Part shown: in pieces, positions 27,340-49,771 of the stretch
Numbering within the stretch: the first letter of the stretch is position 1
Layout: each line of letters opens with the position of its first letter
From: Cyanophora paradoxa CCMP329
Lineage: Eukaryota; Plantae; Glaucophyta
DNA length: 64,000 nucleotides
Direction of reading: 5' to 3'
Assembly (NCBI GenBank): GCA_004431415.1
Contig: QPMI01000091.1
Span: 22,872 to 86,871 of the forward strand
Notes under the pieces: generated by a model
Databases searched by the model: none
What the model saw: the letters and a program-made list of their open reading frames with translations, nothing else
Told to the model about the DNA's origin: nothing
Position numbers and translations under genes: made by a program

Positions 27340-28250
27340 CGAGGAGCGCGTCAGCTGCTGCGGTGTGCGAATAAACCTGGAAACACTGACAGCGCGAGCC
27401 CTGTCCATAGCTGTAGGGAGATCTCGCGATGCCGAGGGGACGGGCCGGGGAGGGGATGCCGGGCCTAGCTTGCAATTGTTCGGGCCCGGCCCGGCGGGAA
27501 GGGGAGTTCGAAATTTTAGTGAGGGGGCCCTGAGGGGAGCGGGGGCTTAACGTGATCGATATCGTTCGGGCCCGGGGAGGATCCGGAGAATTCGAGGCCA
27601 GACGTCGACTCTGAGATCTACATGGGGGGCATGCATATAAAACTCGAATTCGAACTTTGTGGGGGGAGGGCGGCCGGGGGGAATTCGAAGCTTAAAGGAG
27701 TCTAGCCTAGTAGATCTAGATCTGCGCATGCGGCTCTTCGACCTGTTAGCTAAATTTTTTTTTTTAAGTGTGAATCTACGTATATATATATACGATCTGA
27801 TCACGGTCATCATGCATACGTGAGGCTCGGAGCTCGAGCTCGCCGTGCACTGTGCATTTCGAACTTATCGCACATGTACAGGTTCACTGAGCCAATTGCA
27901 AAGGATCCCGGATCGGAGCGACTCGGTTGCAATTGAAGTTTCAAGTTCGTCAAATTGCCGCGCAGTGCGATTCGAATTCGAATTCATGATTCAATGATTC
28001 AGTGATTCATGATTTTGGGAGCCCTGTTCGACGGTCGCAGAAGTGGAGCCGATAGCTAGTGGAGAGGGCCTCGGACGGGGGTGATCAAGGTCTACCTAGG
28101 GCGACTCTGCAGCTTCACTCGCGACGGCCAAGTGGCTGACACGCCTCAAACACTGCAAGCGGCCCGGAGGGGGCACAGCCGGTTGGGGGGCGGCGGGATG
28201 GGCGAGGCCCTGAGGGTGGCGTTTGCCGCAGGGCTAGCGCTGGGGTGCGT

Positions 28251-29927: not shown

Positions 29928-30267
29928 CTTCGCCGCGTGCCGCCTCTTGCGCCCCGGGAGCTCGCCAGCGACAGCACAAAGCTAAGCTCGAATTCCGACG
30001 TGGTGCCGAAGGGATTCGAACCGCTGCCCGTGTACCTTGCGTATACGAAGTTTGCCGCATGCACATGCGCAGTCACACTAGCACTGGTGTTACTCAGTAT
30101 ACGTGGCAGCCTGTGTCTCGAGCTCTGATCTCTTCCCGCTTACACAGATCGGGCCCACGGCAGGCAAATCGAATTTCTTCATGTTCCAGAAAAATAAAGG
30201 CCAAGGGAACAAAAGGCCGAAAACGGGCGCGTGGGGCCCGCTGGGGGCACACAGGCCGGTTTAGAGC

Positions 30268-31160
<893 letters not shown>

Positions 31161-31261
31161 GTTGTACCCGGCCGGGCGAATTCTTGAAATTCGATGTGAT
31201 GAAGAACGGAGCGCCGGAGGGCGCGTGCGGTGCGCAAGCGTGGACCCTCACCTGGCGCGGT

Positions 31262-34200
31262 ATGGACGAGCTCGAGGCAGCCCGGAATGACGCGCGATTG
31301 AGAGTACGCACGTCCACGTCCCCATTGAAGAGATGCTGGTCTCCCGGCCGCGCGCCGGGCGAGCCTGCAGAAGACGAGCAAACTGGAGGGAATTTGAGCC
31401 GCGGGCTTGCAGCAGAGAGCGCTTGCGGTAATTGCGGCGAAGACAGCTGTAGTTGCAGGCACTTCGAATTTCGACTGAAGGCCCTTGTGCATACGATCGT
31501 GAAGGATTATATGCTGGATGCTATCCCTCGCAGTGCGTGAGTGCTATCTACGGGCTGCAACATCGCTGACAGCGCGCGGCGCAGCATTTCTGCTGGGGGC
31601 GGCCCGCGAGGCCTCTGCGGAAGTGGGCGGAGAGCTGCCGGACAGCGTTCGTGTGAAGTGCGTGCGGGTCGGAGGCAGGCGGTGGGCGCTGGTCGACGGC
31701 CCCGTGGTGCGCGCGTCGGTGCTCCGACTTCCGGCGCCACCGGTACCGGCTGCAGCTGCGGGCCCAGCTGTCGTCCGCTGGCCTCGCGTAGTGCTCGTCG
31801 CCGCGGACTCGGACGGCGCCGCCCCGGTCCGCCCCTGCGCCCGACGCGGCGCCTCCTCCTAGATCCGCCTGAGAGGCGGCGCAGCTGCAGGGCGCGGCGG
31901 GAGCGGGCGCGCTGGCTCGGCTCCGGCCCGGCCTCCTCCTCTTCGAGGCCGGGGCGCCGTCGGAACTCGCACAGGCCGCCGCCGCCGCCTGTCCCGCCGC
32001 CCTCGTCGCCGCCGACGTCCGGCCGGGCGCCCTCCGCCGCCTCGCATCCGCCACCGGCGCCCGCCCCGTCCCCTCCAGCGGTGCGCCTGAGTAGCGGGGC
32101 CCCTGGGGCGGCCGCGCCGTAGCGCTAACGCCGGAGGATCAGAGGGCGCGACTGAGGGCTGCGTGGGCCGCTGCGCCGCCGCGGGGGTACTCCTGGAGGA
32201 GGAGGCCGCCCCGTCGTCCCGCGTGCGGCGGCGCCCCCTCCGGCTCCGGCCCCGCGCGCGCGCGGCTTAGCTGGGCATGCAGGCGGTGCTCTACGTGAGC
32301 GGGGCCCCGGGCGCCACCTGTCGCTCCATTCTGGTGGGGTCGGCCGCCGGGGACGCCCCGCGCCTCGCTGCCGCGCTCCGAGTGCGCCCGCTGCTACTGC
32401 TGCTGCCGCCGCCGCCGGCGCCTCTCACCGCCGACAGGCCGCCCTGCGGGAGGCCCGCGGCGCCCGTGCCGAGGCCGCCCTCCTCGCCGCTCTCGGGGCG
32501 CGCCCCGCGCCCGCGCCGTCGCGCCGCCCTCGGTCCTCGGCCCCTGACCCCGGCCGCCCGCAGGCGCGCCCCCGCCCCGCGAGCCGTCCCCCGAATGACG
32601 ACGAGGAGGAGGACGAAGGAGGGACGGCGGAGAAACCAGCCCAGCGCGAGCCCGAGCTGGGAGCCGGCGAGGCTCCCCCCGGCGGCCCCTGCTTCCGCGT
32701 CCTCTGCGCGAGCTACGCCCCGCCGACGTCCCGCGGGCGCGACGACTACTGCTGCGCTCCCCCCGAGATTCGGGACCTGCCGTGCGCGCGGGCCGCCTCT
32801 TGCCCCGCCGCCGCCGCCGCCGCCGCCGCCGCCCACCGGTACCGCCGGGCGGGCAGCCTCGACGAGGGGGAGGGCCCCGAGGGGACCCTCGCCTCGCTCC
32901 TTGCCGCCTGCTTCGACCCCGCCCGCCGCTGCCCCGCCCCCGGCTGTACCCTTCCGGTGCGTGCGGCTCCGCCCTGGTGCCTCTGCGCGAGGAGCTGGCC
33001 GCCGCTGACGGCGGAGGGGGCGGCAGGCGGGCGCTCACGTGCGCGTCTTCCTGCGCGGCGCCGGCGCCCTCGAGCTCCGCCTCCTCGGCGAGCCCGGCCC
33101 GCCGTCCGAGCCGGCCGCCGCCGCTGCCTGCGGCGTCGATGCCTGGGCCGAGCGCCGCGGGTGCTGCGGCCCGGCCCCCGCCGGCGCGCCCCGCGGGGCC
33201 TCTTTCACCTGCCGCCCTGTCCCTCCCGCTCGCCCGCCTGCTCCGCCTCGCGTTCGTGTCGGGGCCGCCGGCCCGGGCGCCTGCCCGGGCTCCCTCTTCC
33301 GCTCCCACGCGGTCTGCTTTGCCCCGCGGGGCCGCCCGGCCCCGTCGCCCGCCTCGAGTGGGCCCCCGCCGCCCGTTCGCCCTCGAGCTCGCCCCGGGCC
33401 CCCGCGCCGCCTGCTCGGAGGGCCCCGAGGCGGCCACGCCCTGCGCCCTCGACCACGAGCTCGCGAGCGCCCACGTGCGCCCGCCACGCCCGCCCGCCCG
33501 AACTGCTGCAGTCGGCTGCCTCTGATGGGCGCCGGCAGGCGGCGGCCGAGGAGCTCGCCGAGGGCGTGCGCGGGGTGCTGCGGGAGGCCTCCTCCGCCGC
33601 CGCCGCCGCGCGCCTCGCAGCCGAGCTCGAGGCCCGCCCGCCCTCCCCGCCTCCGCGCCGTGCGCGCCGGCTCGCTCAAGGGGCGCGAGACGCGCGCGCG
33701 CGGGCAGGGCGAGCACCGGGCCTTCCAGGCCTCCCTCCGGAGGACGGCGGCGCTGCTCGCCCTGCGCCCTGACAGGGAGGAGGCTGGCGCCGGGGCGGGG
33801 CTCGAGGCGCTGGACGAGCTGCGGGTGTCCCTCGCCGAGCGCGTCGCTCGCTGGAACACCGCCCTTCGCTCCGTGCGCCCGGAAGCCCCGCCCTTCCCGC
33901 CCGCCCCGCCCTCGTCTCCGCCCCCCTCAACGCCGGCAGCTCTCGGAGGGGGCGGAAAGACCCCTAGACGGGTCGCCGGCCGCGGAGCAGGAGGCCCCGC
34001 AGCCGCCCGTGGCGGCGGCTTCGCGTCTGGACGCCGTGCTCTCCGACCTGGGCATGGGGCGGGGGCCGGGGCGGGGCGGGGGCGGCCTGCGGGGCGCCCG
34101 GGCGCTGGCGGAGCGCCTCGCGGGGGTGCGCGTGGGGGTGCCCCTGGAGGAGGCCCCGACCCGGCCCCCGCCGTCGCCCACGCCCTCGCCTCCGCCGCCT

Positions 34201-35744
34201 TCCGCGAGCGGCTGCGGCGCCTGCGGCCGGCGGGGCGGCGCCCCTCGAGGAGCTCGCGGGGCCCTGCGGCGCCCCCGCCTCCCACCTCCTCCACGCCTTC
34301 CGCGACCCCGCGGCGCCGAGTTCTCCGTGCCGCCCTCCCAGAGGCCACCGCCCCCGCCGGCGCCGCCGCTGAGGGCCGGCGGTCTCGCAGGTGGTGGCGA
34401 TGTGCGCGCGGCAGTTCGCGGCGGCGCGGGCGCTCCTGCACCCCGGGGGCGAGGCGGCATTCCTGCGCTCCCTCGCGGGGAGCGGCCCCTGGCGCGCCCC
34501 CGCCGGCAAGAGCGGCGCCGCCTTCCGCGCCACCGCCGACGGCCGCCTCCTCCTCAAGGCCCTCCCCGCCGTGCGCGAGCCCGCCCGCCCGCCCGCGAGC
34601 CCGCCGGCCCGCCGCCGGCCCCCAACGTTAACGCCCCCGCGCTCAGGCCGAGTCCGACGACGAGGCCCTGGTGCGCTTCGCGGAGGCCTACTTCGCCCGC
34701 CTCCGCTCCGCCGCCGCCGCCGGGTCCGCCCGCGCCCCGCGCACCGCTGGGCCGCCGCGAGCGGGGCGTGGCGGGCGGCAGGAGGCGACGGCGCTGGTGC
34801 CGCTGCTGGGCCTCTTCGAGGTGGCATGGCGCGAGCCGGGCGGGGCCGGGGCCGGGCGGGCGGGCGGGGCGCTACGCGGTGGCGCCGAGCCTGCTGCACG
34901 GGGCCGCCTTCGCGCGCGTGTACGACCTGAAGGGCGTCCCCGGCTGCAGCGCCCGCGCGGGGCGGGACCCCGCGGGGGCCCTCCTCGACGAGGACCTCCG
35001 CCGCGGTGCCTGCCTCTCCCCTCCGGTCCCCTAGGCCTCCGCCCCCGCCCCCTCACCCGCCTCCCGCAGAGGCGCGCGCCGGCTCGGCCTGGGCCCGCTT
35101 CGGGTCGCCGAGGGGACCTGGGGCGCCTGGGGCGGCCCTGCGCGCCGACGCCGCCTTCCTCGCCTCCGCCGGCCTCGTCGACTACAGGCGCGCCCCGAGC
35201 CCCCGCCCCCTCTCCTTCTCGGGCGCCTCACGGGACCCCCAGCCTGGTGGTGTGCGTGGACGAGCGCCGCCGCCGCTACGTCGTCGGCCTCGTCGGTGCC
35301 CCCGCCGCCCCCGCCCCCGCCCCCGCCCTGCCCCGGCCTCCCCGGCTGTGAGCTCGAGCGTCCGGCGGCAGACTACCTCCGCCGCTGGGGCCTCGCCGAG
35401 CGCATCGAGAGCCTCATCAAGACGCCCTTCGCCCCCGTCCGCCCCGCTCCCCCTCGAGATCTAGACTCATTGTTCCGCTCCTCCCCCGCTGACCCGCGGC
35501 GCAGGCGCGGCCGCCGTCGCCGCTGCCGGCGGGCCCCGCGGGGCCGACGGTGGAGGGCGGCCCGACCGTCATCAGCCCGCCCCTCTACGCCGCACGCCTC
35601 CTGCAGGGCGCGCCCCACTCCGTCGCGCCGGGCTTGGGCCCGCTCTGCCCCGCCCGCTCACCTTCCCGCCTCTTCGCAGCTGTCCTGACGCGCTACTTCG
35701 TCGGCGTTCCGTGCACCGAGGGGAACGCAGACCGCGTGTTTTGA
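31262..35744 (+). CDS. FAB1/PIKfyve-type phosphatidylinositol-3-phosphate 5-kinase (divergent, spliced; start uncertain)
   Basis: CCT-like segment VRVKCVRVGG / VLYVSGAPGATCRSILVG; kinase motifs GKSGAAF.AT.DGRLLLK, YDLKG, LLDEDL, D..FLAS.GLVDYSL, DYLRRW, PTVISPPLY. Confidence 0.8.
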
Positions 35745-35894
35745 GTCATCTCTCAAACCTCTTTTGATTTTCGCAATGAACCTCGGATCGGGAACAGCTC
35801 CCCTAGCCTTCCCTCGGGGCCTTCTGGCTTTGGGCCACTTCACAGTTAGTTCCGCTCATGATGAGTTTCATCAGGTGTTCGCATTTGTTCCACG

Positions 35895-36298
35895 AGCTCA
35901 GCACTGCGCCGTGTCTCCAAAAAAATACCCGCGAAAAAATCAAAAACAAATCAGAAAACAAACCATTCCCAGTAACCCAATCTTGAATATCAGTAAATCT
36001 CAGTAAGCCTCAGTAACCAAAATTGAATTAATCGAAGTTATATCATAATCTCGATTAATTATATCTTATCGAAGTTATATCTTTTTTATGCGCCGTGTCT
36101 CCAAAACAATTCCCAAGAAAAACAAACCATTCACAGTAACCCAATTCCAAATCTCACTAAATCTCAGTAAGCCTCAGTAACAAAAATCGAATTAATCGAA
36201 GTTATATCTTAAATCTTATTTATCGAAGTTATATCATAATCTCGATTAATTATATTTAATCGAAGTTATATCCTTTTTATCCGCCGTGTCTCCCATGA
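35895..36298 (+). repeat. Left terminal inverted repeat (404 bp) made of ~185-190-bp tandem units
   Basis: Reverse complement of 47286-47382 plus 49249-49555; units start with CGCCGTGTCTCC at 35907, 36091 and 36282. Confidence 0.95.
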
Positions 36299-36299
36299 T

Positions 36300-37360
36300 T
36301 TAGCGTTTGGTTAAACCACTTCTCAAATTGTATCTTCTCCTTACAACATTACTTCGATTGGGTTTTATGCCTTCCTTTGCTACCAATCGATTCACTTTAT
36401 TCGTTTTATTAACCTGCTGAATTCGTTTTTGTGATGGGATCTTAATGATATCATCTTTATTCACCTTTTGCAATTCTTGTTTCTTAAATCTCCTCTTCAC
36501 TTCTTTTGTTTCCTCACCATCATTATCTTCAAGGACTTTGAAACGATTCCTATCAGCCTTTGCAACAGTGTAGACCTTTTGACTGAATTGCGCACCTTCT
36601 TTTTCAAATAATCCCTTTGGTTGCAAAACTCGAACTGTGTCTCCTGGTTTCACTTGATTAGTATCAGCCTCCTTTACACGATTGTTGTGAACAGTATCCC
36701 TCATGTAAATAAATAACTGTTTATCTTCATTTGTATACACTGCATTCGGTGAGTCATTTTTCAATGCCGAATGGGGACTGCTATTATACAAGTCAATTAC
36801 ATCACTAAGTAGATCGATCCATTTCGTGGTTCCTTTGCTGTCATCGTTTTCCTGAGATATTGTTTGAAAGTCCTAGTGAACCTATCAATTATCCCCAGTT
36901 TATCTCCTACTGTGATGTGGTCATCCTTTGCCACATCTGTGTAAAGCATTACACCATGTTCACTGCACCAATTTCGGTATACTGCCTGGGAAAACTCATT
37001 ATCCCCAGAGAGAGCATTAACTTTGCCTGCATCTTGCTTGAACCTATTTAAAATGTTCGGGATCTCACTGCTGTTTTTAAAAGGATAAACAAATCCTTTG
37101 CGACTAAGTATGTCTACGAAACTGAGCATTTTGAAAATGCCATTGTTGGCAGTCTGAAACCCTCTGAAATATGTTATATCGATTTGAAACGATCTAGGCT
37201 TTGCTACTATGCGAAGAAACGATTTGGGTTTCCTTGGTTTCTTGTAGATTTGCTGGAGTTCTGAATTTTTGAATTTCTTTTTCAACTCTTTCTCATCAAA
37301 ACTCACCTTTTCATTAATAAGTTTCTGCCTATACTTCTTGAATGATAATACACTATCCAT
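36300..37360 (-). CDS. Retroviral-like (rve) integrase; one frameshift near 36830
   Basis: FQID...VDILSRK...GDNEF...IIDRFTRTFK catalytic core; a shifted frame continues KWIDLLSDVIDLYNSSPHS (YN..PHS motif). Confidence 0.92.
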
Positions 37361-40300
37361 TATTGGGCGGCACAGTTACACTTAATATGAGATAGGAAAC
37401 AATTTTTGGTAATATGAGCCACAGCATTATTGATTCGATCTACCGAGATATCTTCGAAGTCCATGGCATTGTAGCATCGCAGGCAATGCCCATACTGCTT
37501 CCCATATCGCTGCTTGATCCAGTCCCATGTGATGTAATCATGCTCATCGAATTGTCTATTTGCTGCTCGGTCCTGATCCTTGTAAGTCGATATCTTCTCG
37601 TTATTCTCTCTCTTCCACACTTTCCAGTGAGCCATTTCGAAATTATCATGGTAAATAACAACATCATCCAGCCTTGTGGTTCGAGTGAGAGCAACATAGA
37701 GCCACTTCTTTGAAACAAATGGCGCCCCAGTTTCAAACACGACTACCCTGTTCCCTTTGCAGCGAATCGTATCACCTTGAACAACATGGCAGGTGTTTGC
37801 ATAAGCCAGGGCGAAATGTTTGACTGCATCCCTGCTGAGAACGATCTCATCTTTCTTGTTGGCAATGTCAGCAATAATGAAACTGTCCTTTGAGAGCTTG
37901 ACAATCTTGTAGACAAATCCATTATGAACTATTTTTCCGCCCTTTGCAATACGAGTCTTTGCAACAACTTTGATGCCGCCAGCATAAATGGAAACATTAT
38001 CCCCGTAGTTCATTTTGTGAAGGGCTAGGTTCACCTCTGCACCCTTGCGGTTTGTGTAAACAATGCCAATATCAGTCTTTTCCAATTCGTCCACAACCTT
38101 GAACCCATACTTTGCAAGGACCTCACTTACACTCAAACCTTTCTCGAATAAATCAATTCGAATTTGCTCAACCTTCCTGCGATCTTCCTCAGTCTCATGT
38201 CGCTTGTTCACTTGGAGTAACAATTCGTTGGGGAACAGGCGATGGAGGATATCGAGGTAATACTCATCTTGGTCAACACTCATATCTTGGATGGGTGGGT
38301 TTTGGTACGGGTCCCCTGTGGCGATGTATACCTTATCTGGGAACTGCTCATTCATGATGTGGTCCAAGGCTGCCAGTTCCCCAATCTTAAACTGACAGAT
38401 CTCATCAATAACAATGCAATCAAATTCTACCAAACCAGAGGCATTTCCTCCTACAATTTCATCCATGTTTGACTCATCAATTTTAAGGTGAAGGGCATCA
38501 TAGATTGTCTTCACATTTTTCAATCCTTGCTCTTTCATTTCTTTCACTCGCTTGTTGGTTGGAACAATGTAGAGGGGATTTCTGAAACGCTTTCCATATT
38601 CAACTGTCATGTGAGTCTTTCCCACTCCCGGAACTGATCCGAGAAGAACCCATCGTTTTTGTGTAGCCAGCAAATCACAAATCGCGGTTGTGTCATACTC
38701 ATCAACCACAGAGTGTTTGGTATAACTGTAGTTCTCGATTTTCACAAAGTCAGTCGCTCTCTCAAACTTTCCGTAACGAATTCGTTTTGCCTCGAGGTCT
38801 TTCTTCTCACCTGAAAACTTTTTAGAAAAATTGGGGCAGCATTTCACACTGAATTTTCCAATATTCTCAAAGGCATTGCGATCGAATGACACTGGGGCAA
38901 TGGTTCATAAGCGATCCCATAAACACAATCGGTGTTCAAAGCGAGTGGTCGGATTTGCTGTTTAGCGAGTTCGACACACTTCTCATACATACACATCCTC
39001 ATAATTGACAAGAGGGTAGTGTACAATGGCATGAAGCCATCAATGAGCTGCTTTTCTGCTACCTGATTGACATAGTAGATATGGGTTCGGTCATCTCTTC
39101 CTCACACAGAACGAACTCTGTCTCCTCATAAGTGGCAAGAGTCTCACCAAAGAGGTAAATCTTAACCTCCCCTCCGTTCTGTTTCTGGAACTCGATCGCA
39201 TCGTCTCTGTTGTGGAAAATGGTGGTTTTCACTCTGCTATTTCGTTGCTTTCCAGTTTGCCCAATCGCACTCACTAAGATCTGCTTCTTATCAACAGGAT
39301 CGAGGTCGCTATCTAAGATTCGAGCAACTGTGTTGCCTGCAAGGTTGGGAATGAGTTTGTAAGGTCGCAGAACCGCTTTGATGGAGATGTCATCCTTGAA
39401 ATCCTCGAAATGCTTTTTGAGAACCAAACCAGGAACGACATTGTACTTGGAATCAATGATCATCCTCTTGTATCTGTTGTAGGTGTTTGCTTCGTACTCC
39501 TTTCCGTTCTTGTCTTTGGCTTTGAAAAAGTATTTGTCGTCCAGTTTCACGTAATAGAAGCTGTATTCCTCGATTTGCTCTGCATCTGTGATTGTCACAC
39601 TCTTGAAGACATCGAACTTGCTGAGAACAGGAACGAATTTGATCATCAAGGCTACAATGTAAGGGTATGCTTTGCACATATCGAACTCGTAAATATCTGT
39701 GTTATAGCGAATTTCATCAAAGGTCTCCTCATCCACATCAAAGAGACCACGAAGGCAGTCTGCACTCCATTCTTGAATGCATTTATGGTTTGCTCATTGT
39801 AAGTACTCTTGTTGGAAGTGTTGATTAGAGACCTATACATATCCAGATTTAGTTTCTCGAATTTATCTCTGTACTCAGCATTCTTGAAGCTAATCTCGAA
39901 AGCTGTTTCTACATCTGTATCGTTACCAGGTGGGGTCACGACAACATCCTTATCGTCAATAGTGAAACGAATATGGGTTGCCTTTCCGATTTGGGAGAAC
40001 CCAGGTTGGACCTGATAATTATGCACCACAATGAACTCTCTGAGTAGCTCATCCAGTGAACCACCATAGCAGATTCGAATGCTCGATTGGTTCTTTGGAT
40101 TGTCAGACCTGACAATTCTCAGAATGTCATCGGGATTTGTGGCAAACTCCTTGAACCTTCTTTGCTTTATAATCTTGTAACGAGAACTGAGTGGAACATT
40201 GGTATCTTTTGGCTTGGAGCCATTGAAGGACTGTGTGAGAGCCTTAATATTGTGATTTAACAAATACATGTGACCATTCTCAATCTTCACATATGCAACA

Positions 40301-41440
40301 GAAGGGTCAAGTGTGTGTTCCTGGTCTTGGGCAGGAAAGTCAGTTCAGGGACAGGGGTCCTGTCGTCCTTTCCAATTGTAACCATGCCTAGGCGCAGTGG
40401 GTCAAGAACCTTCTCCGAAATGGACTTGAAAGAAATGCCCCAATCATCTCCTTCAACAGGGTCTCGCCCATTCACCATCTTAAACAGTCCGTTGTAAGAC
40501 CAATCGATGCGCTTGTATTTCCCTTTGGTCTTAGCCTTCTCAAATGCTCCTCCAAACCATTTGATGAGGACATCAAAGACACACTTCCCAACCTTGAATG
40601 AGTCACCTTTTAAGAACATTTCCTTGAATGTGGTGGCTTGGGGTTCCCTTCGTTTTAATGAAATTCGAAATAATCATGGGAGCGTTTGTATTGTCTCTGA
40701 GAACTTGTTCATTTCTTGGGATGTATTCTTCATTATCTGTCGTGATGACTCTTTCAATTGTCATAATATCGGGGTAGGTATCTTGCTCAATTAGTTTTAG
40801 GTAGCGGAAATCTTGATTGGTCGAGTTAAACTCGATGACTGCTGCAATAAATTCAGCAATGACGGTCCCTCAACACATGGAACGTATTGAACGTGGATTG
40901 AACCAGACCAAGAGCATTCAGAAAAGCTGCCTTGGTACACTGGATACCAAAGGGGCGATTGTTCCGAAGCCTCTTCGATTCGATGTAGGTCACACCATTC
41001 TCAGTGACCCTGTTCGCGTTTGCGGGAGCCTGTTCTCCCTCTTGCAACTCACGGAAGAGTCTCACATTCAGAGTGACCATGTTTCCAGGTGAGTTTTCAA
41101 CAAACTCACGAAGGTTAGCCATCAATTGCTGGAAAGGAGTCAAGCGCTTCCGCTCTCTCGCTTGCTCCGCTTTCTTGTTTTGCTTCTCAACATTCTTAGC
41201 GGCTCTCTCAGCCCTCTTCTCCTTCTTCTCTTGCTTGCGATACAAACGAGGCTCTACGATACCTCTCAGTGTATCTCTGATATCAATCAACTTTGGAATT
41301 CTAATTGCTTTGAAAGTAAATTCTCTCAAGAAATAGATATCCTGCTCTCGGGTCAATTTGTCTTCTACTTTTGCTTGCATGTAGTAACCAAGAATCTCAT
41401 CCTGTAAATTCTTCGAAATTCGATTACTTGGTCGAGGCAT
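37360..41440 (-). CDS. Replication polyprotein: putative terminal protein, OTU-like protease, divergent family-B DNA polymerase, SF1 helicase, HNH/Zn domain (~1360 aa, about 6 frameshifts)
   Basis: Abutting ORFs join through 1-nt shifts (~40870, 40650, 40290, 39740, 39085, 38895); GKCVFD...NGHMY; PolB motifs FDMCKAYP, K...VSAIG, NTDC; SF1 motifs GVGKT, IDE, GDPYQ, AYANTCHVVQG, YVALTR; C..C...SVDRINN..H..N..H..CN. Confidence 0.8.
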
Positions 41441-42028
41441 TTCTTTGTTCACTCTATTAATATATACCTACAAAAGTTTTCTTTAAATACTTTTATACTC
41501 GCGTCAAATTTTACCGGCAAAACCAAAAGTCTCCAACAAATATATTTAGTCGAGGGCATTTATAAAAATAACGAAGGGTTGGCTCGATCATCGAACTCTA
41601 AAAATAACAGAATGATTTTATTTGTGGTTCCAGCGCGGTTCCCACGGGTTTCTCAGAGCAGATCGCGCTGAGAAAAACGATTAACAGAGATATTTCGATT
41701 TGCGACCACGGTTAGAATACGGGACACCATAGAGATACTTCACAAAGCAGACTGCATTGGAAGCATAGAGACGCTGGGAACTCTCAACGATTCTCATGGC
41801 TCTGTAACACTCATCAGTATGGTATAAATCACGCATTTGCTTTGCGAATTTCGCATTATACTTTTTTAAATATTCCTGACCTTTTTCACTTTTACGATAA
41901 CGATAAGTAGCACGCTTCTGAGCCTCACTGATTGGCATTTTGTCTTTTTCTACTCTCTTAATATATGTTAAGAAATCTTTAAGTAGTTTTTCTGTCTGTA
42001 TATAGCGAATAAACTCCTGTCAAATTTT
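41440..42028 (-). promoter_or_regulatory. Two copies of a shared putative viral promoter (AAAATTTGA ... YTTAAAG ... ATATATTAA.AGAGT ... ATG)
   Basis: Upstream of the ATGs at 41440 and 41938; TCAAATTTT on + strand at 41504-41512 and 42020-42028; a related third copy at 47271-47279. Confidence 0.65.
41681..41938 (-). CDS. Small basic viral protein (85 aa), possible DNA-binding protein
   Basis: Intact ORF starting MPISEAQKRATYRYRK; shares its upstream motif with the polymerase gene. Confidence 0.7.
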   Translation of the reverse strand: MPISEAQKRATYRYRKSEKGQEYLKKYNAKFAKQMRDLYHTDECYRAMRIVESSQRLYASNAVCFVKYLYGVPYSNRGRKSKYLC

Positions 42029-42082
42029 GGTCCCGATTGCAGAGCATCCAGTACGAAAGAAGATGCTGGAAAAATGATAAAG

Positions 42083-42141
42083 CTACCGATACCCAGAAGG
42101 TTCACTTGTCGGCTGCAAGTTTCTACCACTGAACCCGGTAG
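42083..42141 (-). ncRNA. Candidate tRNA-like structured RNA (mini-cloverleaf) in a viral intergenic region
   Basis: CTACCG/CGGTAG closing stem, GGTTCAGTGGTAGAA D-arm, ACTTG-cagccga-CAAGT arm, ACC-TTCTG-GGT arm, T-run shortly downstream. Confidence 0.35.
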
Positions 42142-42287
42142 AACAGGTGATTAAAGTGATTTACCTATGGATATTTCACTTCGCTCTACAACGCCTCCAT
42201 AAAAATGAAGAAGTTTTGAGCCTACGGGATAGGATTGGTTACGTAGCGCTAACAATGTTCAAGATTTTTTAAATTCGGAAATGATCC

Positions 42288-43048
42288 TTAACGGCGATAT
42301 CCAGGTCTGATCCCGAGCTTGGCAAACCCTGAGACCATTGGAGCAGCATTTGGAATCGAGTTGACTGGATCAGCCTGCGAAGTGGCAACCCGAAGGATCG
42401 ATTTATTGAGGACCGGCAAATCCGTTTTGTTGGAGTCTTGGTAATCGATTGTCTTTGCAATCAATTCGGTTGGTGATTCTTTTACAACTTGAACAGGTTC
42501 AGGGATGACTTCATGGGTTACTTCTGGTTTCTTCTCAACCTTCTCCTTTGTGATTGGCTGTTCCTTGATCTTGTTTTCGTTTTTGGTCTCTGCTGCAATG
42601 CCATCAACAAGACTTTTAGCATACTGATATGTCACAGATTTCAGTCCGCCAGTGGTTGAACGAATAAAGTAGCGGTTGCGATGGTCTTTCTCGGAATAGG
42701 TTGAGTAGAGCCTCTCGCCACCATCAAGCAGTTTCAGCAGTGTCGATGATGAGGCAACCTTATCCTTTGTGGATGATTTGAACTGCCCTTTCTTGATTCC
42801 TCGTTTGGCTCCGGGCATGCGGTTCAATGGGACTTGGTCAACCAGGGCATTATCATCGTTGCTGTTTTTCGTAGTGGCTTGGGTGAATTGGTTTCGTTCT
42901 TTATGGACTTCTTTATCGAGGTCACCAGTTCCGTATGCAGCGATTCCCTTCGATTTCTTATACCAGTTCCTTCCAGTCTCACCATTGCCAACATCCGCTT
43001 CAGCGGCTGGTTTGGACAAGAAATTCTTGGCTGAGTCTTGCGAGCCAT
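42288..43048 (-). CDS. Lys-rich viral protein of unknown function (~250 aa; probable frameshift just after the ATG at 43048)
   Basis: 243-aa ORF 42288..43019 with no nearby in-frame ATG; the ATG at 43048 is in an adjacent frame; lies downstream of the penton gene. Confidence 0.7.
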
Positions 43049-43084
43049 TTGTAATATCGAGACAAATTTATTCTACAGTATTTC

Positions 43085-43971
43085 CTATGACCGTGAGAAC
43101 GGCAGGTAGAGTCCCTCCAACTCTTTTATGACATTCTTCAATGCTTTCTTCGTCAGATCTTTATCATCTTCAGTAATCAGTTCAAGAGTCATCGACCAGT
43201 CGGTAGTAATGTCTGCTGTGGCTCCGTTCCAGTAAGAAAGTCTCACATCTAGAGTCTCAACCTCAACCAAGCCATTCTGCTCGTGAACGATCATGGAATT
43301 ATTCGATGAATCATATTTTAATAGACTGCCAACCGTTTGGTCAATCTCAATTTTTGCAATAGCATTGTTATCTCGTTTGTTATTGCTCACATATCTTCCT
43401 TTCAGTGGATCAACATGAAGAAGCAAATAGGAATTAAATAGGAGATCTAATGGCATTTCACTATCAATGTAGTGAGCATAAGTAAAGGCTCCAACTGTGA
43501 CATTAGATGATAGAGGACTCGATTGATAAAGTGTGTTTGCATTTTCAAAACCGCAGAAATTGGCTAAGAGTTGAGTGTTCATAGTGATTGAGAATGGAAC
43601 CTCGCACATAAACCTTAGAAGCAATGTTGTGGATCATAGGTTACATAGAAATGGCGAGTGTAAGTTCCGCCACCCGCTTGATTATAGGGCTGGGATCCAA
43701 TGCGAGCGATCAGATAATTCACCAGTGAATCGGGTGTATATGCACCTCGGAGGACTTCGTTGTTTCTATTCTTTGGGTTCCCAGCATTATCGAGTGTTTG
43801 AGTGGTGAGGGTTCCTACTTCAGAGAGGTTGTAAAGATTGTGAAACATCTCAAAGTTCGTTACTCGACAGGCTCTGACCTTTTGGATCGCATAAGGGAGT
43901 CTGTATGTGAAATTAGTTGGGGTTCCATCCGATCGGTCCCTGGAATCAATATTGAGATAGTAACGCGTCAT
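43085..43971 (-). CDS. Minor capsid protein (penton); one frameshift near 43620
   Basis: N-terminal YLNIDSRDRS..PTNFTYRLP and C-terminal LDVRLSYWNG..DITTDWSMTLEL, typical of PLV/NCLDV pentons; divergent from the major capsid gene. Confidence 0.85.
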
Positions 43972-44023
43972 TCTGTTTAATAAAGCATTTTAAAAATTTC
44001 TTTTGGTATTTTAAACATAAGAG

Positions 44024-45250
44024 ATGGCACTCACTGGAACTACCCTTAAGGAATTACTCGTAACTCCCGGTTCCGATCAAATTTATCTGTCCCCTGGTCT
44101 CCAGATTGGAACCAACCCCAAATACAAACCATTCCTCGAGCAAGTTCGTCCCCGAGGCAATACTTTTGGCTTTAAGAATACCGCTTACTTTGATCTACCT
44201 CGCAAGCAACTCCTTGCTGGTGTTTCGCTCTATTTCAAGATTGCCACTGGTGGTGGTGTAGCCTGCACCCTCCCCAATGGTGGTTCTTCCTATATTAATG
44301 AGGTCCGCTTCGTTCATGGTGGTTTCAAGTATATCATCCCTGGTGACTGGATCACTGTAAACGCCCTGATCGATAATGATCACGCTACCATGGGCAGTAT
44401 GTTTGCTTCTCTCGGTTACTTCAAAGAACTTGATCGTGAAAGCACAGATGAGGCTATGGAATACATTGTTAAAATCCCCGCTGCTTTCTGGGATGATGCT
44501 TACTTCCCACTATGCACACTGGCGGATATGCCAACAATTGAGGTGGATTTCCGTGATGCTGCAATTGTCCAGGTTCCCGCCGGTGGATCTGTTACCTTTG
44601 CGGATTGCTCTCTGATCTGCCAATTCGTTAACATCGCTTCGGCTGAGGCTGAGACACTCTTGAAGATGGCGAACGAACAAGGTGGCATTCGCATTCCGAT
44701 CACAGAGGTCATCCACAAGAAGACCCGAGCGCTCAAAACCGCTGATGCTGGTGAATCGGTTGAGGTGACACTCGCTAATGTTTCCGGTCTGGTTCATTCG
44801 ATTCTTATGACTGTTCGAGAGGTGAACAAACTGAACACCTACACTCATTCTGATTTCTGTGGTCATGTTTCGGATGTTAAGATTGATCAGTTCCAGATCT
44901 TCCACAACAATCGCTCCCTCGATATCTCCAACAAACCCATTTCCGGTTTCCTCTCGGCAATGAATCACATTCCATCCCATTATAAGGGCGTTTCAGTTGG
45001 CAATACCACCTATGGATTCGAGTCTGGAAATGTTTACGGAATTGTTCTATCCAAATCCGGAAAGGATTCACTCCACAACTCGGTTATGGGTTACCAGGAT
45101 TTCTTCAACAGCAGTTCGAGTTACATGGATCTCACTGTTTCCGGATGCACTGATGCCGCTCCTGTTCAGGTTGATATCTATGCCCTCCGACACAATGTTA
45201 TGGTACTCAATGGCTACAACATCTCTACCCTGAAAGTCTCGAACTTCTAA
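44024..45250 (+). CDS. Major capsid protein (double jelly-roll)
   Basis: Intact 408-aa beta-rich ORF with F.LPR..L....LYF, INEVRF..GG, IPAAFW...FPL..L...IEVDF; lies between penton and ATPase genes. Confidence 0.85.
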   Translation: MALTGTTLKELLVTPGSDQIYLSPGLQIGTNPKYKPFLEQVRPRGNTFGFKNTAYFDLPRKQLLAGVSLYFKIATGGGVACTLPNGGSSYINEVRFVHGGFKYIIPGDWITVNALIDNDHATMGSMFASLGYFKELDRESTDEAMEYIVKIPAAFWDDAYFPLCTLADMPTIEVDFRDAAIVQVPAGGSVTFADCSLICQFVNIASAEAETLLKMANEQGGIRIPITEVIHKKTRALKTADAGESVEVTLANVSGLVHSILMTVREVNKLNTYTHSDFCGHVSDVKIDQFQIFHNNRSLDISNKPISGFLSAMNHIPSHYKGVSVGNTTYGFESGNVYGIVLSKSGKDSLHNSVMGYQDFFNSSSSYMDLTVSGCTDAAPVQVDIYALRHNVMVLNGYNISTLKVSNF

Positions 45251-45305
45251 GCGCGGTTTCGCCCGCGCGCAACGACCGAAGGAAGTAGATTCTTTTCTTC
45301 CGTTA
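45251..45305 (+). terminator. Hairpin(s) immediately after the capsid stop codon
   Basis: GCGCGG-tttcgc-CCGCGC directly after TAA, followed by GGAAG...CTTCC. Confidence 0.4.
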
Positions 45306-45367
45306 GAGTAGGAAGCGCAATTATTTGCAGGTGTGTACTTTATTTTGTTTTTTATCTTATTACTGTA

Positions 45368-46126
45368 ATGGATAACACAGTAAATCTTGATGATATTCCG
45401 GAGTTCGATCCAAGTAAGACAGTTCGAATCCCGACGAGAATTTTGAATGTTGGTCGCTCCAATACAGGTAAGACAATGTTCACAAAATACTTACTTTACG
45501 AGCTTCGTGACAAGATCGATCAGATCGTTATATTTAGTTCAACAGCTTTTACTGGGCAATTTAATGACATCACCCATCCCGAAAACATCTATGAGGAGTG
45601 GGATGATAACATTGTTTTGAGATTGATCAGTATGCAAAAGAAACGAATCGAGAACAATGAGAAACGCAATAATCTAGTAATTATACTTGATGATATGATA
45701 GGTTCAAATTTGGATATGCATAATTCGGCTGTTTTATCTAAATTGGTCACGAGTGGAAGACATTATGCAATTTCTGTAATATTTAATGTTCAGCGTTTAT
45801 GTTCGATTTCAACTACGATTCGTAGAAATGTTGAGTTTGTAGTATTTTTCAATATACTCGGAAATGAGAAAGAGTTTAATTGCGCTTTTGATGAGTACAA
45901 TGGTGGAATGGATAAAAAGACCTACAAGGAATTGCATCGGTTGTGGGGTTATAATTACCAAACTGTCATAGCTAGCCTGCAAGGTTACGATATCAAGACC
46001 TATACTGATCGAGCAGTACTAACAGATGATGATATAAAGGGTTTTAAGAAGTTTGTGAAGAGAAAAGCAATTAAAAGGGGTCAGATGGCTCGGATTCAGC
46101 GAGAAATGACCACAATCAGTGTTTGA
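45368..46126 (+). CDS. A32/FtsK-like genome packaging ATPase
   Basis: Walker A GRSNTGKT, Walker B LVIILDD, and GRHYAISVIFNVQ...IRRN A32 signature. Confidence 0.95.
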   Translation: MDNTVNLDDIPEFDPSKTVRIPTRILNVGRSNTGKTMFTKYLLYELRDKIDQIVIFSSTAFTGQFNDITHPENIYEEWDDNIVLRLISMQKKRIENNEKRNNLVIILDDMIGSNLDMHNSAVLSKLVTSGRHYAISVIFNVQRLCSISTTIRRNVEFVVFFNILGNEKEFNCAFDEYNGGMDKKTYKELHRLWGYNYQTVIASLQGYDIKTYTDRAVLTDDDIKGFKKFVKRKAIKRGQMARIQREMTTISV

Positions 46127-46370
46127 AAAGTCGATTTCTGAAGAATATTGTATGGTAAGGTAGCTTGAAATACTAAGGAGATAGCATAGTTGCGAAGAGC
46201 TTAAACAGCGCTTCAAACCGATATGCAGAACGTTGCGAGATCATAATCTGGTGATGAGATACAAGCGTTTGAAGATGCCGATAATCGATTTACCGAAACT
46301 TCGGTGAAACGTGAGCGAAACTTGAACCGTGAGATCATATACCCTACTATGGTTTATTCCCCGGGTTTTC

Positions 46371-46454
46371 ATGGCGCATTTAATGGCGCATTTAATGGCG
46401 CATTTAATGGCGCATTTTATGGCGCATTTTATGGCGCATTTTATGGCGCATTTG
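46371..46454. repeat. Seven-copy 12-bp tandem array ATGGCGCATTT(A/T/G)
   Basis: 3 x ATGGCGCATTTA, 3 x ATGGCGCATTTT, 1 x ATGGCGCATTTG. Confidence 0.95.
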
Positions 46455-46516
46455 ATGAAAAGTCCCTACTCTGTGGCATGAACCAATCAGAAGCCAGCAA
46501 ATTTAAAATTAATATA

Positions 46517-46624
46517 TGAGGTATTATCTGAGATATAATCTGAGGTATTATCTGAGATATAATCTGAGGTATTATCTGAGGTATTATCTGATCGAGATGT
46601 TATCTGAGATGTGATCTGTGATGT
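46517..46624. repeat. Second 12-bp tandem array TGAGGTATTATC/TGAGATATAATC
   Basis: Six clean units at 46517-46588, then degenerate units. Confidence 0.9.
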
Positions 46625-47037
46625 AAACCTGGGGAGAAGTTGAAGGGGATACATTGAAAGTCAGTGAGCCAATCAGATTGCGTCACACATATATACATAT
46701 ACATCATGACAATATACACATCGCCGTGATCGTCATAATCTCCCGAGTCACGTGGTATGTCATATATATCATATACATATACATCGTCATCATGACGTCA
46801 TATATATATATCACATATACACAAATCGATATGTCATAGCTATGACCATAAATCGATTTTCTATGATATATATCGTATATACTATATTGATATAGTGACG
46901 TATATACGATTAAAAAGCAATTACAATTCTATTGTTTTTATTGTCTTTTCTATCGTTGTTTCTAGTGTAAAAAATACAGTAAAAAACCGTTCAAAAAATA
47001 CAGTAAAAAATAAGAGGTTTTAAATTGTTACTGAGGC

Positions 47038-47223
47038 TTACTGAGATTTTACGTTTTGTTTTGTGTGGTTACTGTGAATGGTTTGTTTTTTATTTGTTAC
47101 TGGCTTGTGTTTCTCACAATAAACTTGATACATTTCCCTCTCATCATTAAAGAAATCATGGACTTCCCATACTGTGTGACATCCACATTCCTTAACATCT
47201 CTTTGGCGCTTTTCCCAAGCCAT
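47038..47223 (-). CDS. Small (61 aa) viral protein with CxCH...CxxH putative Zn ligands
   Basis: MAWEKRQRDVKECGCHTVW...YCEKHKP...KSQ*; preceded by the AAAATTTGA/CTTAAA/ATATA motif. Confidence 0.6.
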   Translation of the reverse strand: MAWEKRQRDVKECGCHTVWEVHDFFNDEREMYQVYCEKHKPVTNKKQTIHSNHTKQNVKSQ

Positions 47224-47285
47224 TGGTATATGTTTGTGTTTAATAACTTTTAAGCATGTTAAAAAAGCAATCAAATTTTTGTAAT

Positions 47286-49555
47286 TCATGGGAGACACGG
47301 CGGATAAAAAGGATATAACTTCGATTAAATATAATTAATCGAGATTATGATATAACTTCGATAAATAAGATTTAAGATATAACCACGGAGCACGCCGGGA
47401 GCGTAGAGTAGGGCGCGCGGGATAGCGGCGACCGGTGGGCCCCCGCAGAGACTCCGCAGCGTGTCCGAAAACCTCCCCAAGCCGCCACGCCTCCCAGGGA
47501 GCAAGCGTATCGGTTCTCGCATTCCGCGCGCCAGCAGTCGCTGCCGGCCTTCAGCCCTAGTCGCAGGTAGCTCAGTGTGCGATCGAACAGCCGTCCAGCC
47601 GGCCCCGCTCGCCCGATCGGGAGCGCGGCCCGATCGGGAGCGCGGCCCTCGCGTACGCGAACTGGGCAAGGGTCGCCAACCGCGGCCACCAGGACGCTAT
47701 CCCCTCGCTCTTAACTGCTCTTCATAGGCACCGATGCTCTGCGCTCCGTCGATCACGGGCTCGGGCTCACGCTTTCCACTCGGCAGCTTCGTGCACGCGG
47801 GCGCGCGCAGGCGTACGCGAGGGCGATCATCGACACCGGGCTTCGATACCGCCAGGGAGCCGCCTGCGCTGCCCCCGCGCGCTGCCCCACCGCCCCGTGG
47901 CACAGCCGCCCTGTCCGCACTAGCTATAGCACTTCAGCCAGATCTAGCGACCGCGGCGCCGGCCGCCGCTTAGAGACTGGAGACGTCGCTTAGGCCCTCA
48001 GCGCGCAGCCGAGTACGCCCTCATAGCTGCACGACTGCATCGATATCGTTACTTTTAAGCCATGAATACCGCTCGCCGTCCCATGTCTGCGCATGCGACG
48101 ACGTGGCCTGCCCCGACGGCGCTCGGCCTGCCCTCGCGGGGCGCTGTGCAAATGCCGTCCCGGGCGGCCCGTCGAGCGGCCAGGAAGAGACATGGCGCCT
48201 TTTAGTTTTGCTGCACTGGCAGCGTGCCTGCGCCACCGTTTCTCGCTTTTCCGCCGGCGCCGGGCCGCCATGGCGCGCGCGCGCCTCACTCTCCGCGCCC
48301 CAGGCCTCAGGTTCTTGCTCCATTGATCCACCCCCGCCCCCGCCCCGCCCCCGCCCCCGGCCCCTGTCGCCCGGCCCTCCCTGCCAGGCGGCGACCCGGG
48401 CTCTGGTCCACCTCCTCTCGGGCCCTGCGAATGCGGCGACCCCCCCCCCCTCCCCGGCATGTCCGTGGCCACGGCCGCGGCCCCCGCCCTCCTGACCCTC
48501 CCGATCCCCGCGCCCGCGGTGTGCGGCAGCGCGACCCGTGGCCGCGCCGGCGGCGGCCACGGGGTGGGCCTCCCACCTTGACGACGGCGAACACTAGCAG
48601 AGACGGCCCCTGCGGCCGGGCGTCCTCATTTCCTTTTTGTATTCGGGCCTTCCCCTCCCTTCCTCCGTTCCGTTCCGTTCCTCAGCTAGCTATAGCGCCG
48701 CTAGCAGTACCTATTATGTAGAGCCCCATCGAAGTTTTAGATGAGCACGTCGACTACAAACTCATGTACATAGCCGTAGGGACCAGCCAGTGCTTATTTT
48801 CGGTCGATGTCCCACCTCGCCTCAACGACCACTAGTCTTTCCAGACGCCGCTCTAGCATTCCGGAGACGAGCACCTGGCGCCCGTTAGGGGCGTCAGCTC
48901 TACGTATACTCGCCGCGTGGCGGACTAGGCTCGCGGGGCGGCCCCTGGCTGCCCTGACGCACCAGCCCTCTAGAGGGCGTCCCATGCCCCGACGGGTCCG
49001 GTCCGGCACGCTCTTGTATATGCATACCTCGTAGATCTCCGACATCGCCTCAGTTCATGATCATGATCATCCGTGCAATCGGTTTTCCACATCGGCTTCT
49101 AGCACTACCACTTGTACATATACCTCTTCATAGTGGCCCCGCGCCCCCGCTGTCCGGGGCGGGCGCCAGTAGAGTAGCACGCCTCGGTCACGTAGATAGA
49201 GGTGTGCTTGAATAACGCAAACGACCCCGGCGGGGTCCCCTCCTGGAACTTCGATTAATTCGATTTTTGTTACTGAGGCTTACTGAGATTTAGTGAGATT
49301 TGGAATTGGGTTACTGTGAATGGTTTGTTTTTCTTGGGAATTGTTTTGGAGACACGGCGCATAAAAAAGATATAACTTCGATAAGATATAATTAATCGAG
49401 ATTATGATATAACTTCGATTAATTCAATTTTGGTTACTGAGGCTTACTGAGATTTACTGATATTCAAGATTGGGTTACTGGGAATGGTTTGTTTTCTGAT
49501 TTGTTTTTGATTTTTTCGCGGGTATTTTTTTGGAGACACGGCGCAGTGCTGAGCT
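47286..49555 (-). repeat. Right terminal inverted repeat, split by a nested insertion (47286-47382 and 49249-49555)
   Basis: 97 + 307 = 404 bp, matching the left TIR by eye. Confidence 0.95.
47383..49246. mobile_element. Nested GC-rich non-autonomous insertion (1864 bp) in the right TIR
   Basis: Absent from the left TIR; flanked by a duplicated AA (or AAC); ends CCACGGAG...CTCCTGG; subterminal hairpin GACCCC-ggc-GGGGTC; no recognisable transposase. Confidence 0.88.
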
Positions 49556-49771
49556 TCCACGTGCACGCAGAACAACGGCTGCAGCTGCGCTACGAGGCTA
49601 TACAGTATGTGTACATGTGTGTACAGCCGTAACCTGCTATCCTTGCCCATTCAGAGCCTGGTTCATACTATGAGACTATGGCAGACTAGACTAGTTTTGA
49701 TTTACACTAATAACACGCAGTAGCCTCGCCCCCCTCCCCTACCGTCGTACCCCCTTTCCATCTGCTCTGTG

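What the first reader, a model, noticed from the sequence alone, without database searches (positions are those of the whole stretch)
37360..41440. All-in-one replicase: terminal protein / OTU protease / atypical PolB / SF1 helicase / HNH in one reading frame
Seen: consecutive ORF fragments join through single-base shifts with no intergenic gaps into ~1360 aa. The order is a basic helical N-terminus, a Cys...His pair (GKCVFD...NGHMY), PolB motifs A/B/C, all major SF1 (RecD/Pif1-like) motifs, and a C-terminal CxxC...DRINN..H..N..HxxC module. Known: protein-primed PolBs of Polintons can carry terminal-protein, viral-OTU and HNH/EndoVII-like domains. Inference: a self-processing polyprotein that supplies primer, polymerase, unwinding and resolution functions. 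I cannot tell how well described this exact fusion is.
Basis: partly seen in the sequence, partly recalled or inferred. Interest (0 to 1): 0.85.

Follow-up and report, generated by a model that had tools for sequence, protein, structure and literature searches.

The report
Known polinton-like virus polymerase-helicase gene
This is the single large DNA-replication gene of a small virus integrated in a microbial eukaryote's genome; its apparent breaks are very likely assembly errors, and the same five-part design (likely primer domain, protease, polymerase, helicase, nuclease) was already described in 2016 and 2024, so it is a new member of a known family.

Summary
The fusion is real, and it is already known. 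41440-37360 (minus strand) reads as one 1362-residue frame once eight single-base gaps are allowed for. Short-read contigs of four DNA runs carry one extra base at each gap, and adjacent single-copy host DNA shows the same one-base gaps with no substitutions, so the breaks are very likely assembly errors. Of the 150 best database relatives, 103 are full-length with the same order; the OTU Cys and His, three polymerase residues and the helicase motifs are invariant in all 103. Folds of an intact relative match OTU proteases and phi29 polymerase. This is the 'Tlr1-like helicase' or pPolB-S1H protein (TP-vOTU-palm-SF1-HNH) of polinton-like viruses (PMC5499653, PMC11161782). The gene lies in an 11.8-kb integrated element with an rve integrase, A32 ATPase, inverted repeats and a 6-bp target duplication. 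Small additions: the likely priming domain is the alpha/beta domain after the basic leader, with a candidate linking Thr222/Tyr223, and a dead exonuclease remnant persists. This scan noted the same family at least five times in other genomes.

The parts
35895..49555 (.). Whole integrated polinton-like element (11,798 bp and 40.5% GC without the nested insert), ends AG...CT, 6-bp target-site duplication TCCACG at 35889-35894 and 49556-49561
35895..36302 (+). Left terminal inverted repeat, 408 bp, with internal 83-94 bp direct repeats
47282..49555 (-). Right terminal inverted repeat in two pieces (47282-47383 and 49247-49555), split by a 1863-bp, 68% GC insert flanked by a 3-bp duplication; one mismatch to the left repeat
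37360..41440 (-). pPolB-S1H ('Tlr1-like helicase') gene, 1362 aa; assembly is one base short at 38901, 39082, 39753, 40303, 40639, 40652, 40866, 40878
41111..41440 (-). Variable, basic, helical N-terminal leader (about residues 1-110); no function shown
   Evidence: no BLAST match among 154 relatives; long helix in the model of a relative
40738..41090 (-). Alpha/beta middle domain in the terminal-protein position (about residues 118-235); candidate linking residue Thr222/Tyr223 (40779-40774)
   Evidence: family HMM 59 bits against at most 6.2 in 200 shuffles; model of a relative; Ser/Thr/Tyr in this loop in 101 of 104 rows
40245..40680 (-). vOTU cysteine protease domain, Cys288 (40583-40581) and His392 (40272-40270)
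   Evidence: both 103 of 103; OTU fold in a relative
39813..40158 (-). Likely remnant of the 3'-5' exonuclease domain, without a conserved acidic catalytic set (about residues 430-545)
   Evidence: phi29 polymerase alignment starts at its residue 5 with 349 residues aligned; column conservation
38751..39760 (-). Protein-primed-type PolB palm/fingers: motif A Asp589, motif B Lys721, motif C Asp840 (NTDC, first Asp replaced)
37639..38706 (-). Superfamily 1B (RecD/Pif1/Dda-like) helicase
   Evidence: Pfam AAA_19 E 6e-8; PHROG 325 E 4e-18; Pif1/RecD chains in the PDB for a profile of relatives
37360..37596 (-). HNH / endonuclease VII-like zinc module (CxxC...DR...H...N...HxxCN)
   Evidence: columns conserved in 93-101 of 103 relatives; PHROG 1035 endonuclease VII on relatives P0006 and P0002, not on the window's own fragment
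36300..37360 (-). rve-type (retroviral) integrase; ATG overlaps the replicase stop (TAATG); assembly one base short at 36831
   Evidence: Pfam rve E 0.004, below the curated cut-off
43085..43970 (-). Candidate minor capsid protein (named by size, position and recalled look only); one gap at 43630
   Evidence: no family hit
44024..45250 (+). Candidate major capsid protein, 408 aa (named by size and position only)
   Evidence: no relative found
45368..46126 (+). A32-like packaging ATPase
   Evidence: Pfam Pox_A32 E 5e-15

Best explanation
This is one continuous gene for a Tlr1-like pPolB-SF1 helicase protein of an integrated polinton-like virus, which likely primes DNA synthesis on its own terminal-protein domain, likely cuts that domain off with its OTU protease, and likely copies the linear genome with a proofreading-less polymerase coupled to the helicase. 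Shown: one open frame in sister copies, the domain order, invariant catalytic residues, purifying selection, and the element's ends. Inferred: after excision the inverted repeats act as origins; a hydroxyl residue in the loop before the last strand of the middle domain (Thr222 or Tyr223) takes the first nucleotide; vOTU cleaves between that domain and itself; the palm extends while the SF1B helicase unwinds; the HNH module nicks or resolves branched DNA; the rve integrase, possibly made by reinitiation at the TAATG overlap, inserts the product with a 6-bp duplication. The eight breaks in this assembly are very likely long-read deletion errors.
For: Contigs of 4 of 4 DNA runs laid have one extra base at each of the 8 breaks; one 2352-nt contig spans 38638-40981 with exactly 8 gaps. 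All lie at runs of 2-4 equal letters. Single-copy host DNA at 32845-35291 shows 7 + 17 such gaps with 0 substitutions, and 27000-32795 shows none (table 8). 16 of 16 listed substitutions between this copy and the main sister contigs are synonymous in the replicase, 20 of 23 in the integrase. 103 of the 150 best relatives are at least 1150 aa; 99 of 103 keep all ten key residues. A relative's residues 176-325 match OTU chains (ranks 3-18 of 50, best Z 6.7, rmsd 3.1, 104 aligned), and all 33 Foldseek rows shown are OTU/deubiquitinase entries. Its palm region matches phi29 polymerase at Z 14.3 (rmsd 5.0, 349 aligned; next 8.1). Ser/Thr/Tyr occurs in the predicted linking loop in 101 of 104 rows, the top of 134 windows (median 52%), with Ser and Tyr interchanging. 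The architecture is the one in PMC11161782 and PMC5499653.
Against: No activity is shown for any domain; a search for in-vitro work on vOTU cleavage of pPolB listed only 3 papers, none experimental on it by title and abstract start. Folds were run on relative L001 (26% identical), not on the window's protein. OTU matches are all under Z 8 and Foldseek E is at best 0.054. The middle domain's best structural matches were reovirus polymerase-cofactor chains (Z 7.6 and 7.0), which is within the tool's noise range. The hydroxyl-loop window was picked after looking at the alignment; 5.5% of windows elsewhere in the protein also reach 95%. The replicase contigs are pooled sister copies (about 18-34 times host depth), so they prove an open frame in the family, not strictly in this copy. 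Motif C lacks its first Asp, which the 2016 paper read as inactivation.
Confidence: 0.88

Rival explanations
1. The family is intact but this genomic copy is a real pseudogene that gained eight (with the integrase, nine) frameshifts after insertion.
For: The contigs over the replicase are pooled sisters and differ from the window at 0.4-3% of sites, so they are not this copy. Fragmented fusion genes were read as decay in Oxyrrhis PLVs (PMC12721341). The right repeat carries a nested insert.
Against: Every break is a one-base loss at a short run; there is no nonsense codon or larger indel; the repeats differ at 1 of 408 sites; the same gaps occur in single-copy host DNA next door with 0 substitutions; a low-depth contig that matches this copy with 0 substitutions over 36350-37423 has one gap there. 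PMC10120064 section 7 reports such artefacts in endogenous viruses.
Confidence: 0.05
2. The palm domain is a catalytically dead scaffold (the 2016 reading); the protein works as a helicase and origin-binding factor and a host or helper-virus polymerase copies the DNA.
For: Motif C has N/K/R/H in place of the first Asp and no YGDTDS; motif B lacks the canonical Asn and Tyr; PMC5499653 argued for inactivation.
Against: Asp589, Lys721 and Asp840 are invariant in 103 of 103 relatives at about 30% identity; PMC11161782 notes that active polymerases lack the same Asp; fold matches phi29 over 349 residues.
Confidence: 0.1
3. The vOTU acts mainly as a deubiquitinase against host defence or turnover and the protein is not self-cleaved; the HNH is a passenger homing endonuclease and not part of replication.
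For: The structural neighbours are deubiquitinases; PMC11161782 ascribes the HNH to intein or homing invasions; Tlr1 has GIY-YIG there and transpovirons none.
Against: The HNH residues are kept in 93-101 of 103 divergent relatives, which suggests a lasting role; the fixed place of vOTU behind the TP-position domain fits cleavage; the two roles do not exclude each other.
Confidence: 0.25

Closest known systems
Tlr1-like helicases / pPolB-S1H fusion proteins of polinton-like viruses, Tlr1 and transpovirons (PMC5499653; PMC11161782)
   Same: Length (1362 aa; published range 1000-1400), order (variable leader, alpha/beta middle domain, vOTU with Cys and His, palm with motif C lacking the first Asp, SF1 helicase, C-terminal HNH), no working exonuclease.
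   Different: Sequence only 27-35% identical to the best relatives over the helicase part; third zinc ligand of the HNH is His (3 of 103 relatives share it); a structural remnant of the exonuclease is visible, which the text I read describes for mavirus and not for this family.
Tetrahymena Tlr1 element
   Same: pPolB-S1H together with an rve integrase, packaging ATPase and terminal inverted repeats.
   Different: Tlr1 ends in GIY-YIG, this one in HNH; this element is about 11.8 kb; its capsid type could not be placed.
Polinton/Maverick pPolB (TP-vOTU-EXO-PALM)
   Same: TP-position domain, vOTU, protein-primed palm; rve integrase; 6-bp duplication and AG...CT ends (polinton hallmarks, recalled).
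   Different: No intact exonuclease; helicase and HNH fused; no Ulp1-type maturation protease found among the element's ORFs.
Oxyrrhis marina OmPLV SF1-pPolB fusion (PMC12721341)
   Same: Helicase and pPolB in one protein of about 1500 aa; seen as fragmented ORFs.
   Different: Opposite order (helicase first), full exonuclease, no TP or vOTU found.

Membership tests
Tlr1-like helicase / pPolB-S1H | One ORF of 1000-1400 aa with the SF1 helicase in the C-terminal part | tested here: met
   1362 aa, no stop; extra base at all 8 breaks in 4 of 4 runs; helicase at residues about 915-1270
Tlr1-like helicase / pPolB-S1H | PolB palm with motifs A, B, C; first Asp of motif C replaced | tested here: met
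   D589, K721, D840 in 103 of 103; position 838 is K/N/R/H
Tlr1-like helicase / pPolB-S1H | Palm of the protein-primed kind (TPR1, TPR2) | tested here: inconclusive
   A relative's model matches phi29 at Z 14.3 over 349 residues against 154-181 for RNA-primed PolBs, and pPolBs lead the viral library; the two subdomains were not inspected residue by residue
Tlr1-like helicase / pPolB-S1H | vOTU domain with catalytic Cys and His before the palm | tested here: met
   C288, H392 in 103 of 103; OTU fold in a relative, Z up to 6.7
Tlr1-like helicase / pPolB-S1H | Alpha/beta middle domain in the terminal-protein position | tested here: met
   Shared with the family (59 bits); sheet plus helices at residues 29-154 of a relative
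PRD1-like terminal protein | LF/PAD-like fold with a Ser/Thr/Tyr between the last helix and last strand | tested here: inconclusive
   Hydroxyl residue in that loop in 101 of 104 rows; fold search of the two-domain model gave only matches under Z 8 for this part
Tlr1-like helicase / pPolB-S1H | No functional 3'-5' exonuclease | tested here: met
   No invariant Asp/Glu between residues 400 and 585; only a partial structural match to the phi29 exonuclease region
Tlr1-like helicase / pPolB-S1H | C-terminal HNH (PLVs) or GIY-YIG (Tlr1) domain | tested here: met
   HNH-type residues conserved; endonuclease VII / HNH profiles hit relatives
Tlr1-like helicase / pPolB-S1H | Polymerase, protease and priming activity | not testable with these tools
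   Needs purified protein
Polinton-like virus (Polisuviricotina) | A32-like packaging ATPase, integrase, terminal inverted repeats | tested here: met
   Pox_A32 E 5e-15, weak rve hit; repeats and duplication
Polinton-like virus, class Aquintoviricetes | [quoted passage not shown] | tested here: inconclusive
   408-aa candidate had no match in Pfam, PHROGs, PDB sequences or three collection searches; it was not folded

The most novel reading that the evidence does not exclude
This compact 11.8-kb element is a still-active virus of an unplaced capsid lineage whose replicase primes on a non-PRD1 terminal-protein fold at Thr222/Tyr223, keeps a dead half-exonuclease as a structural part, uses its HNH as a domesticated resolvase, and makes its integrase by termination-reinitiation at the TAATG overlap, so tying integration to replicase output. 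With some 20-30 near-identical copies in a much-sequenced host it would be a handy system for the first biochemical test of pPolB-S1H priming and self-cleavage.
Probability: 0.2. Interest if true: 0.5.

Novelty: new member of a known kind. Interest (0 to 1): 0.2.

Why it matters
As an architecture it adds nothing new: it is published and common (over 100 clusters at 50% identity among the best hits alone). It matters modestly in two ways. The family's activities are still predictions, and this analysis names testable residues (Thr222/Tyr223 for priming, Cys288/His392, Asp589/Asp840, His1345) backed by invariance and synonymous-only change between copies. It is also a clean example of assembly deletions making an intact endogenous virus look dead.

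Tried and rejected
No whole genome was held, so sister copies were seen only through run contigs. No RNA holder was listed; nothing is claimed on expression. Programmed frameshifting was rejected: the run contigs have the extra base in DNA. Separate polymerase and helicase genes were rejected: one contig spans the junction and 103 relatives are fused. A palm alignment had no stretch conserved enough to scan with. The capsid candidate matched nothing. No Y-family little-finger chain is among the 50 rows; the middle domain was not folded alone, so this does not exclude that fold. The reovirus cofactor match (Z 7.6) was not taken as homology. The Atlas feature search on a relative gave only leads under 0.9, mostly DNA_pol_B_2. 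Left-junction host contigs run 29-30 letters into the repeat, under the tool's 31-letter bar, so they are not counted as bridging. The best viral-library match, H6WBE3, has no name at hand and is in no searched paper. Rows dropped: 47 of the 150 representative hits under 1150 aa were left out of the motif counts; the folding alignments used 55 relatives because of a size limit.
Full report
Setting. The window is 60-83% GC eukaryotic DNA (INTS7, Med20, ATG5, BRCT, GST, WD40 and SNF2 pieces among 56 ORFs scanned) with one AT-rich island. The island is an integrated element from 35895 to 49555: 408-bp terminal inverted repeats that differ at one site, ends AG...CT, and a 6-bp duplication TCCACG. 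The right repeat is split by a 1863-bp GC-rich insert. Without it the element is 11,798 bp at 40.5% GC. It encodes an rve-type integrase (weak Pfam hit, E 0.004), the gene in question, an A32 packaging ATPase (E 5e-15) and two ORFs that by size and place are likely capsid proteins. The host is probably an alga: one host ORF starts with what looks like a plastid transit peptide (my recalled reading, no call).

Is the fusion real? Yes. The motifs lie in seven fragments over three frames. Twenty of 24 listed public runs hold the stretch or part of it. Contigs of the four DNA runs laid all carry one extra base at 38901, 39082, 39753, 40303, 40639, 40652, 40866 and 40878, and at 36831 in the integrase; one 2352-nt contig spans 38638-40981 with exactly eight gaps. 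With N at those eight places the frame runs 1362 residues from ATG 41440 to TAA 37360 without a stop, and omitting any one gives an early stop. All eight sit at runs of two to four equal letters.

Error or decay? The replicase contigs lie at roughly 18-34 times the depth of host contigs (from; the tool warns that depth is no copy number), so they are pooled sisters, 0.4-3% different from the window. The control is the host flank: single-copy contigs match the window with no substitutions, with no gaps over 27000-32795 but 7 gaps over 32845-34044 and 17 over 34090-35291. The assembly is therefore short of single bases from about 32.8 kb on, in host and element alike. A low-depth contig matching this copy exactly over 36350-37423 also has one gap. 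PMC10120064 (passages and section 7) describes the same artefact. Between this copy and the main sister contigs, 16 of 16 listed substitutions in the replicase and 20 of 23 in the integrase are synonymous (the tables list only the best-supported differences, 38 of 41 for the contig over the integrase and helicase end).

Relatives. A word-based search gave 5 long relatives, all colinear with the read-through over the regions they cover; a profile search added 3. The index-free search with the helicase-HNH fragment gave 1022 proteins at E up to 0.001 and listed 150. Of these 103 are at least 1150 aa. In all 103 the columns for Cys288, His392, Asp589, Lys721, Asp840, Lys944, Glu1016 and Arg1256 are invariant; 99 of 103 also keep His1345 and Asn1349. 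Residues 69-279 match a profile of the relatives' N-terminal regions at 59 bits, against at most 6.2 for 200 shuffles. An IMG/VR contig (L001) holds an unbroken 1222-aa relative near an A32-like ATPase.

Folds. The window's domains are split by breaks, so I folded L001's protein in two parts with 55 relatives and two window fragments each (mean pLDDT 82.8 and 89.5). Residues 176-325 match OTU proteases: ranks 3-18 of the wide search, best Z 6.7, rmsd 3.1, 104 aligned; all 33 Foldseek rows shown are OTU or deubiquitinase entries, though none reaches E 0.001. Residues 324-770 match phi29 polymerase at Z 14.3, rmsd 5.0, 349 aligned, well above the next row (8.1), and protein-primed polymerases, mavirus among them, lead the viral library. 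The phi29 match runs from its residue 5 to 498. Since phi29's exonuclease covers about residues 1-189 (recalled), at least 40 aligned residues fall in it. The stretch between vOTU and palm is thus likely an exonuclease remnant; it has no invariant acidic residue, so it is likely dead.

The priming domain. The basic helical leader has no match among relatives. The conserved unit is the alpha/beta domain behind it (strands 30-40, 81-92, 104-106, two helices, last strand 140-150 in L001). Its best structural matches are reovirus polymerase cofactors at Z 7.6 and 7.0, within noise. PMC11161782 places the linking residue of PRD1-like terminal proteins in the loop between the last helix and last strand. 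In that loop 101 of 104 rows have Ser, Thr or Tyr within four residues (L001 duplicates one row), the top of 134 windows tested, median 52%; Ser (45), Tyr (30) and both (14) interchange. In the window this is Thr222/Tyr223. The window was chosen after seeing the alignment, and 5.5% of windows elsewhere in the protein reach 95%, so this is support, not proof.

Mechanism. Shown: single frame, domain order, conserved catalytic residues, selection, element ends. Inferred, following PMC11161782: protein priming at the inverted repeats, release of the priming domain by vOTU, synthesis by a proofreading-less palm with the fused SF1B helicase unwinding, and insertion by the rve integrase. The HNH module's role is open: homing passenger per that paper, or kept for cutting branched DNA given its conservation. 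The replicase stop overlaps the integrase start (TAATG), the pentamer known from hypovirus termination-reinitiation (PMC2699510, search listing only); no difference is listed there in the sister contigs, and L001 and L002 do not show it.

What is known. PMC5499653 (passages and section 8) reports 1000-1400-aa Tlr1-like helicases with a pDNAP palm, an SF1 helicase and, in PLVs, a C-terminal HNH. PMC11161782 (parts 1-4 of 6; figures and supplementary figures S6-S7 not seen, and they may already show the exonuclease remnant or this middle-domain variant) adds the variable N-terminal domain, the TP-position domain with at least three folds, and the vOTU with conserved Cys and His, predicts self-processing and an active palm, and names the family pPolB-S1H. 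Tlr1 already pairs it with an rve integrase. Two 2026 preprints (passages and one section) treat polB-SF1 genes as typical of PLVs and note that PolB goes with DDE integrases. PMC12721341 (passages) and PMC13215967 (one passage) repeat the description; PMC8502044 (passages) added nothing decisive. Five earlier notes of this scan in at least four other genomes filed similar genes under the same family.

Verdict. Observation confirmed, architecture already described, this gene a divergent new member. Interest 0.2.

Noticed in passing
window 37358-37362: The replicase stop and the integrase start overlap as TAATG with no intergenic space, which may mean a bicistronic message with termination-reinitiation; not seen after the replicase in L001 or L002.
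   Followed up: partly
window 47384-49246: 1863-bp, 68% GC insert inside the right terminal repeat, flanked by a 3-bp duplication (AAC), with weakly similar ends and no Pfam hit in two ORFs scanned; probably a non-autonomous host transposon. It may disable this copy's right end.
   Followed up: partly
window 32845-35291: Single-copy host gene region (looks like a FAB1/PIP5K-type gene, recalled) has 24 one-base gaps against run contigs and no substitutions, while 27000-32795 has none: an unpolished stretch of the assembly starts near 32.8 kb.
   Followed up: yes
window 44024-45250 and 43085-43970: Divergently arranged candidate major and minor capsid genes about 50 bp apart; the 408-aa protein has no relative in any search run, so its capsid lineage is unplaced.
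   Followed up: partly
window 41300-46300: Run contigs at 85% likeness are two to five times deeper and more varied over the capsid and ATPase half than over the replicase, which suggests related elements that share the capsid module but carry other replication genes.
   Followed up: no
window 46355-46633: Two arrays of 12-bp tandem repeats and an AT-rich repetitive stretch between the ATPase gene and the right repeat; partial copies of terminal-repeat motifs at 47025-47098.
   Followed up: no
L001 model residues 23-154: The middle domain's best structural matches are reovirus and aquareovirus polymerase-cofactor chains (Z 7.6, 7.0), within the tool's noise range.
   Followed up: no
L002 10963-15393: A second ORF of 1476 aa faces the pPolB-S1H gene on this 14% GC contig; not examined.
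   Followed up: no
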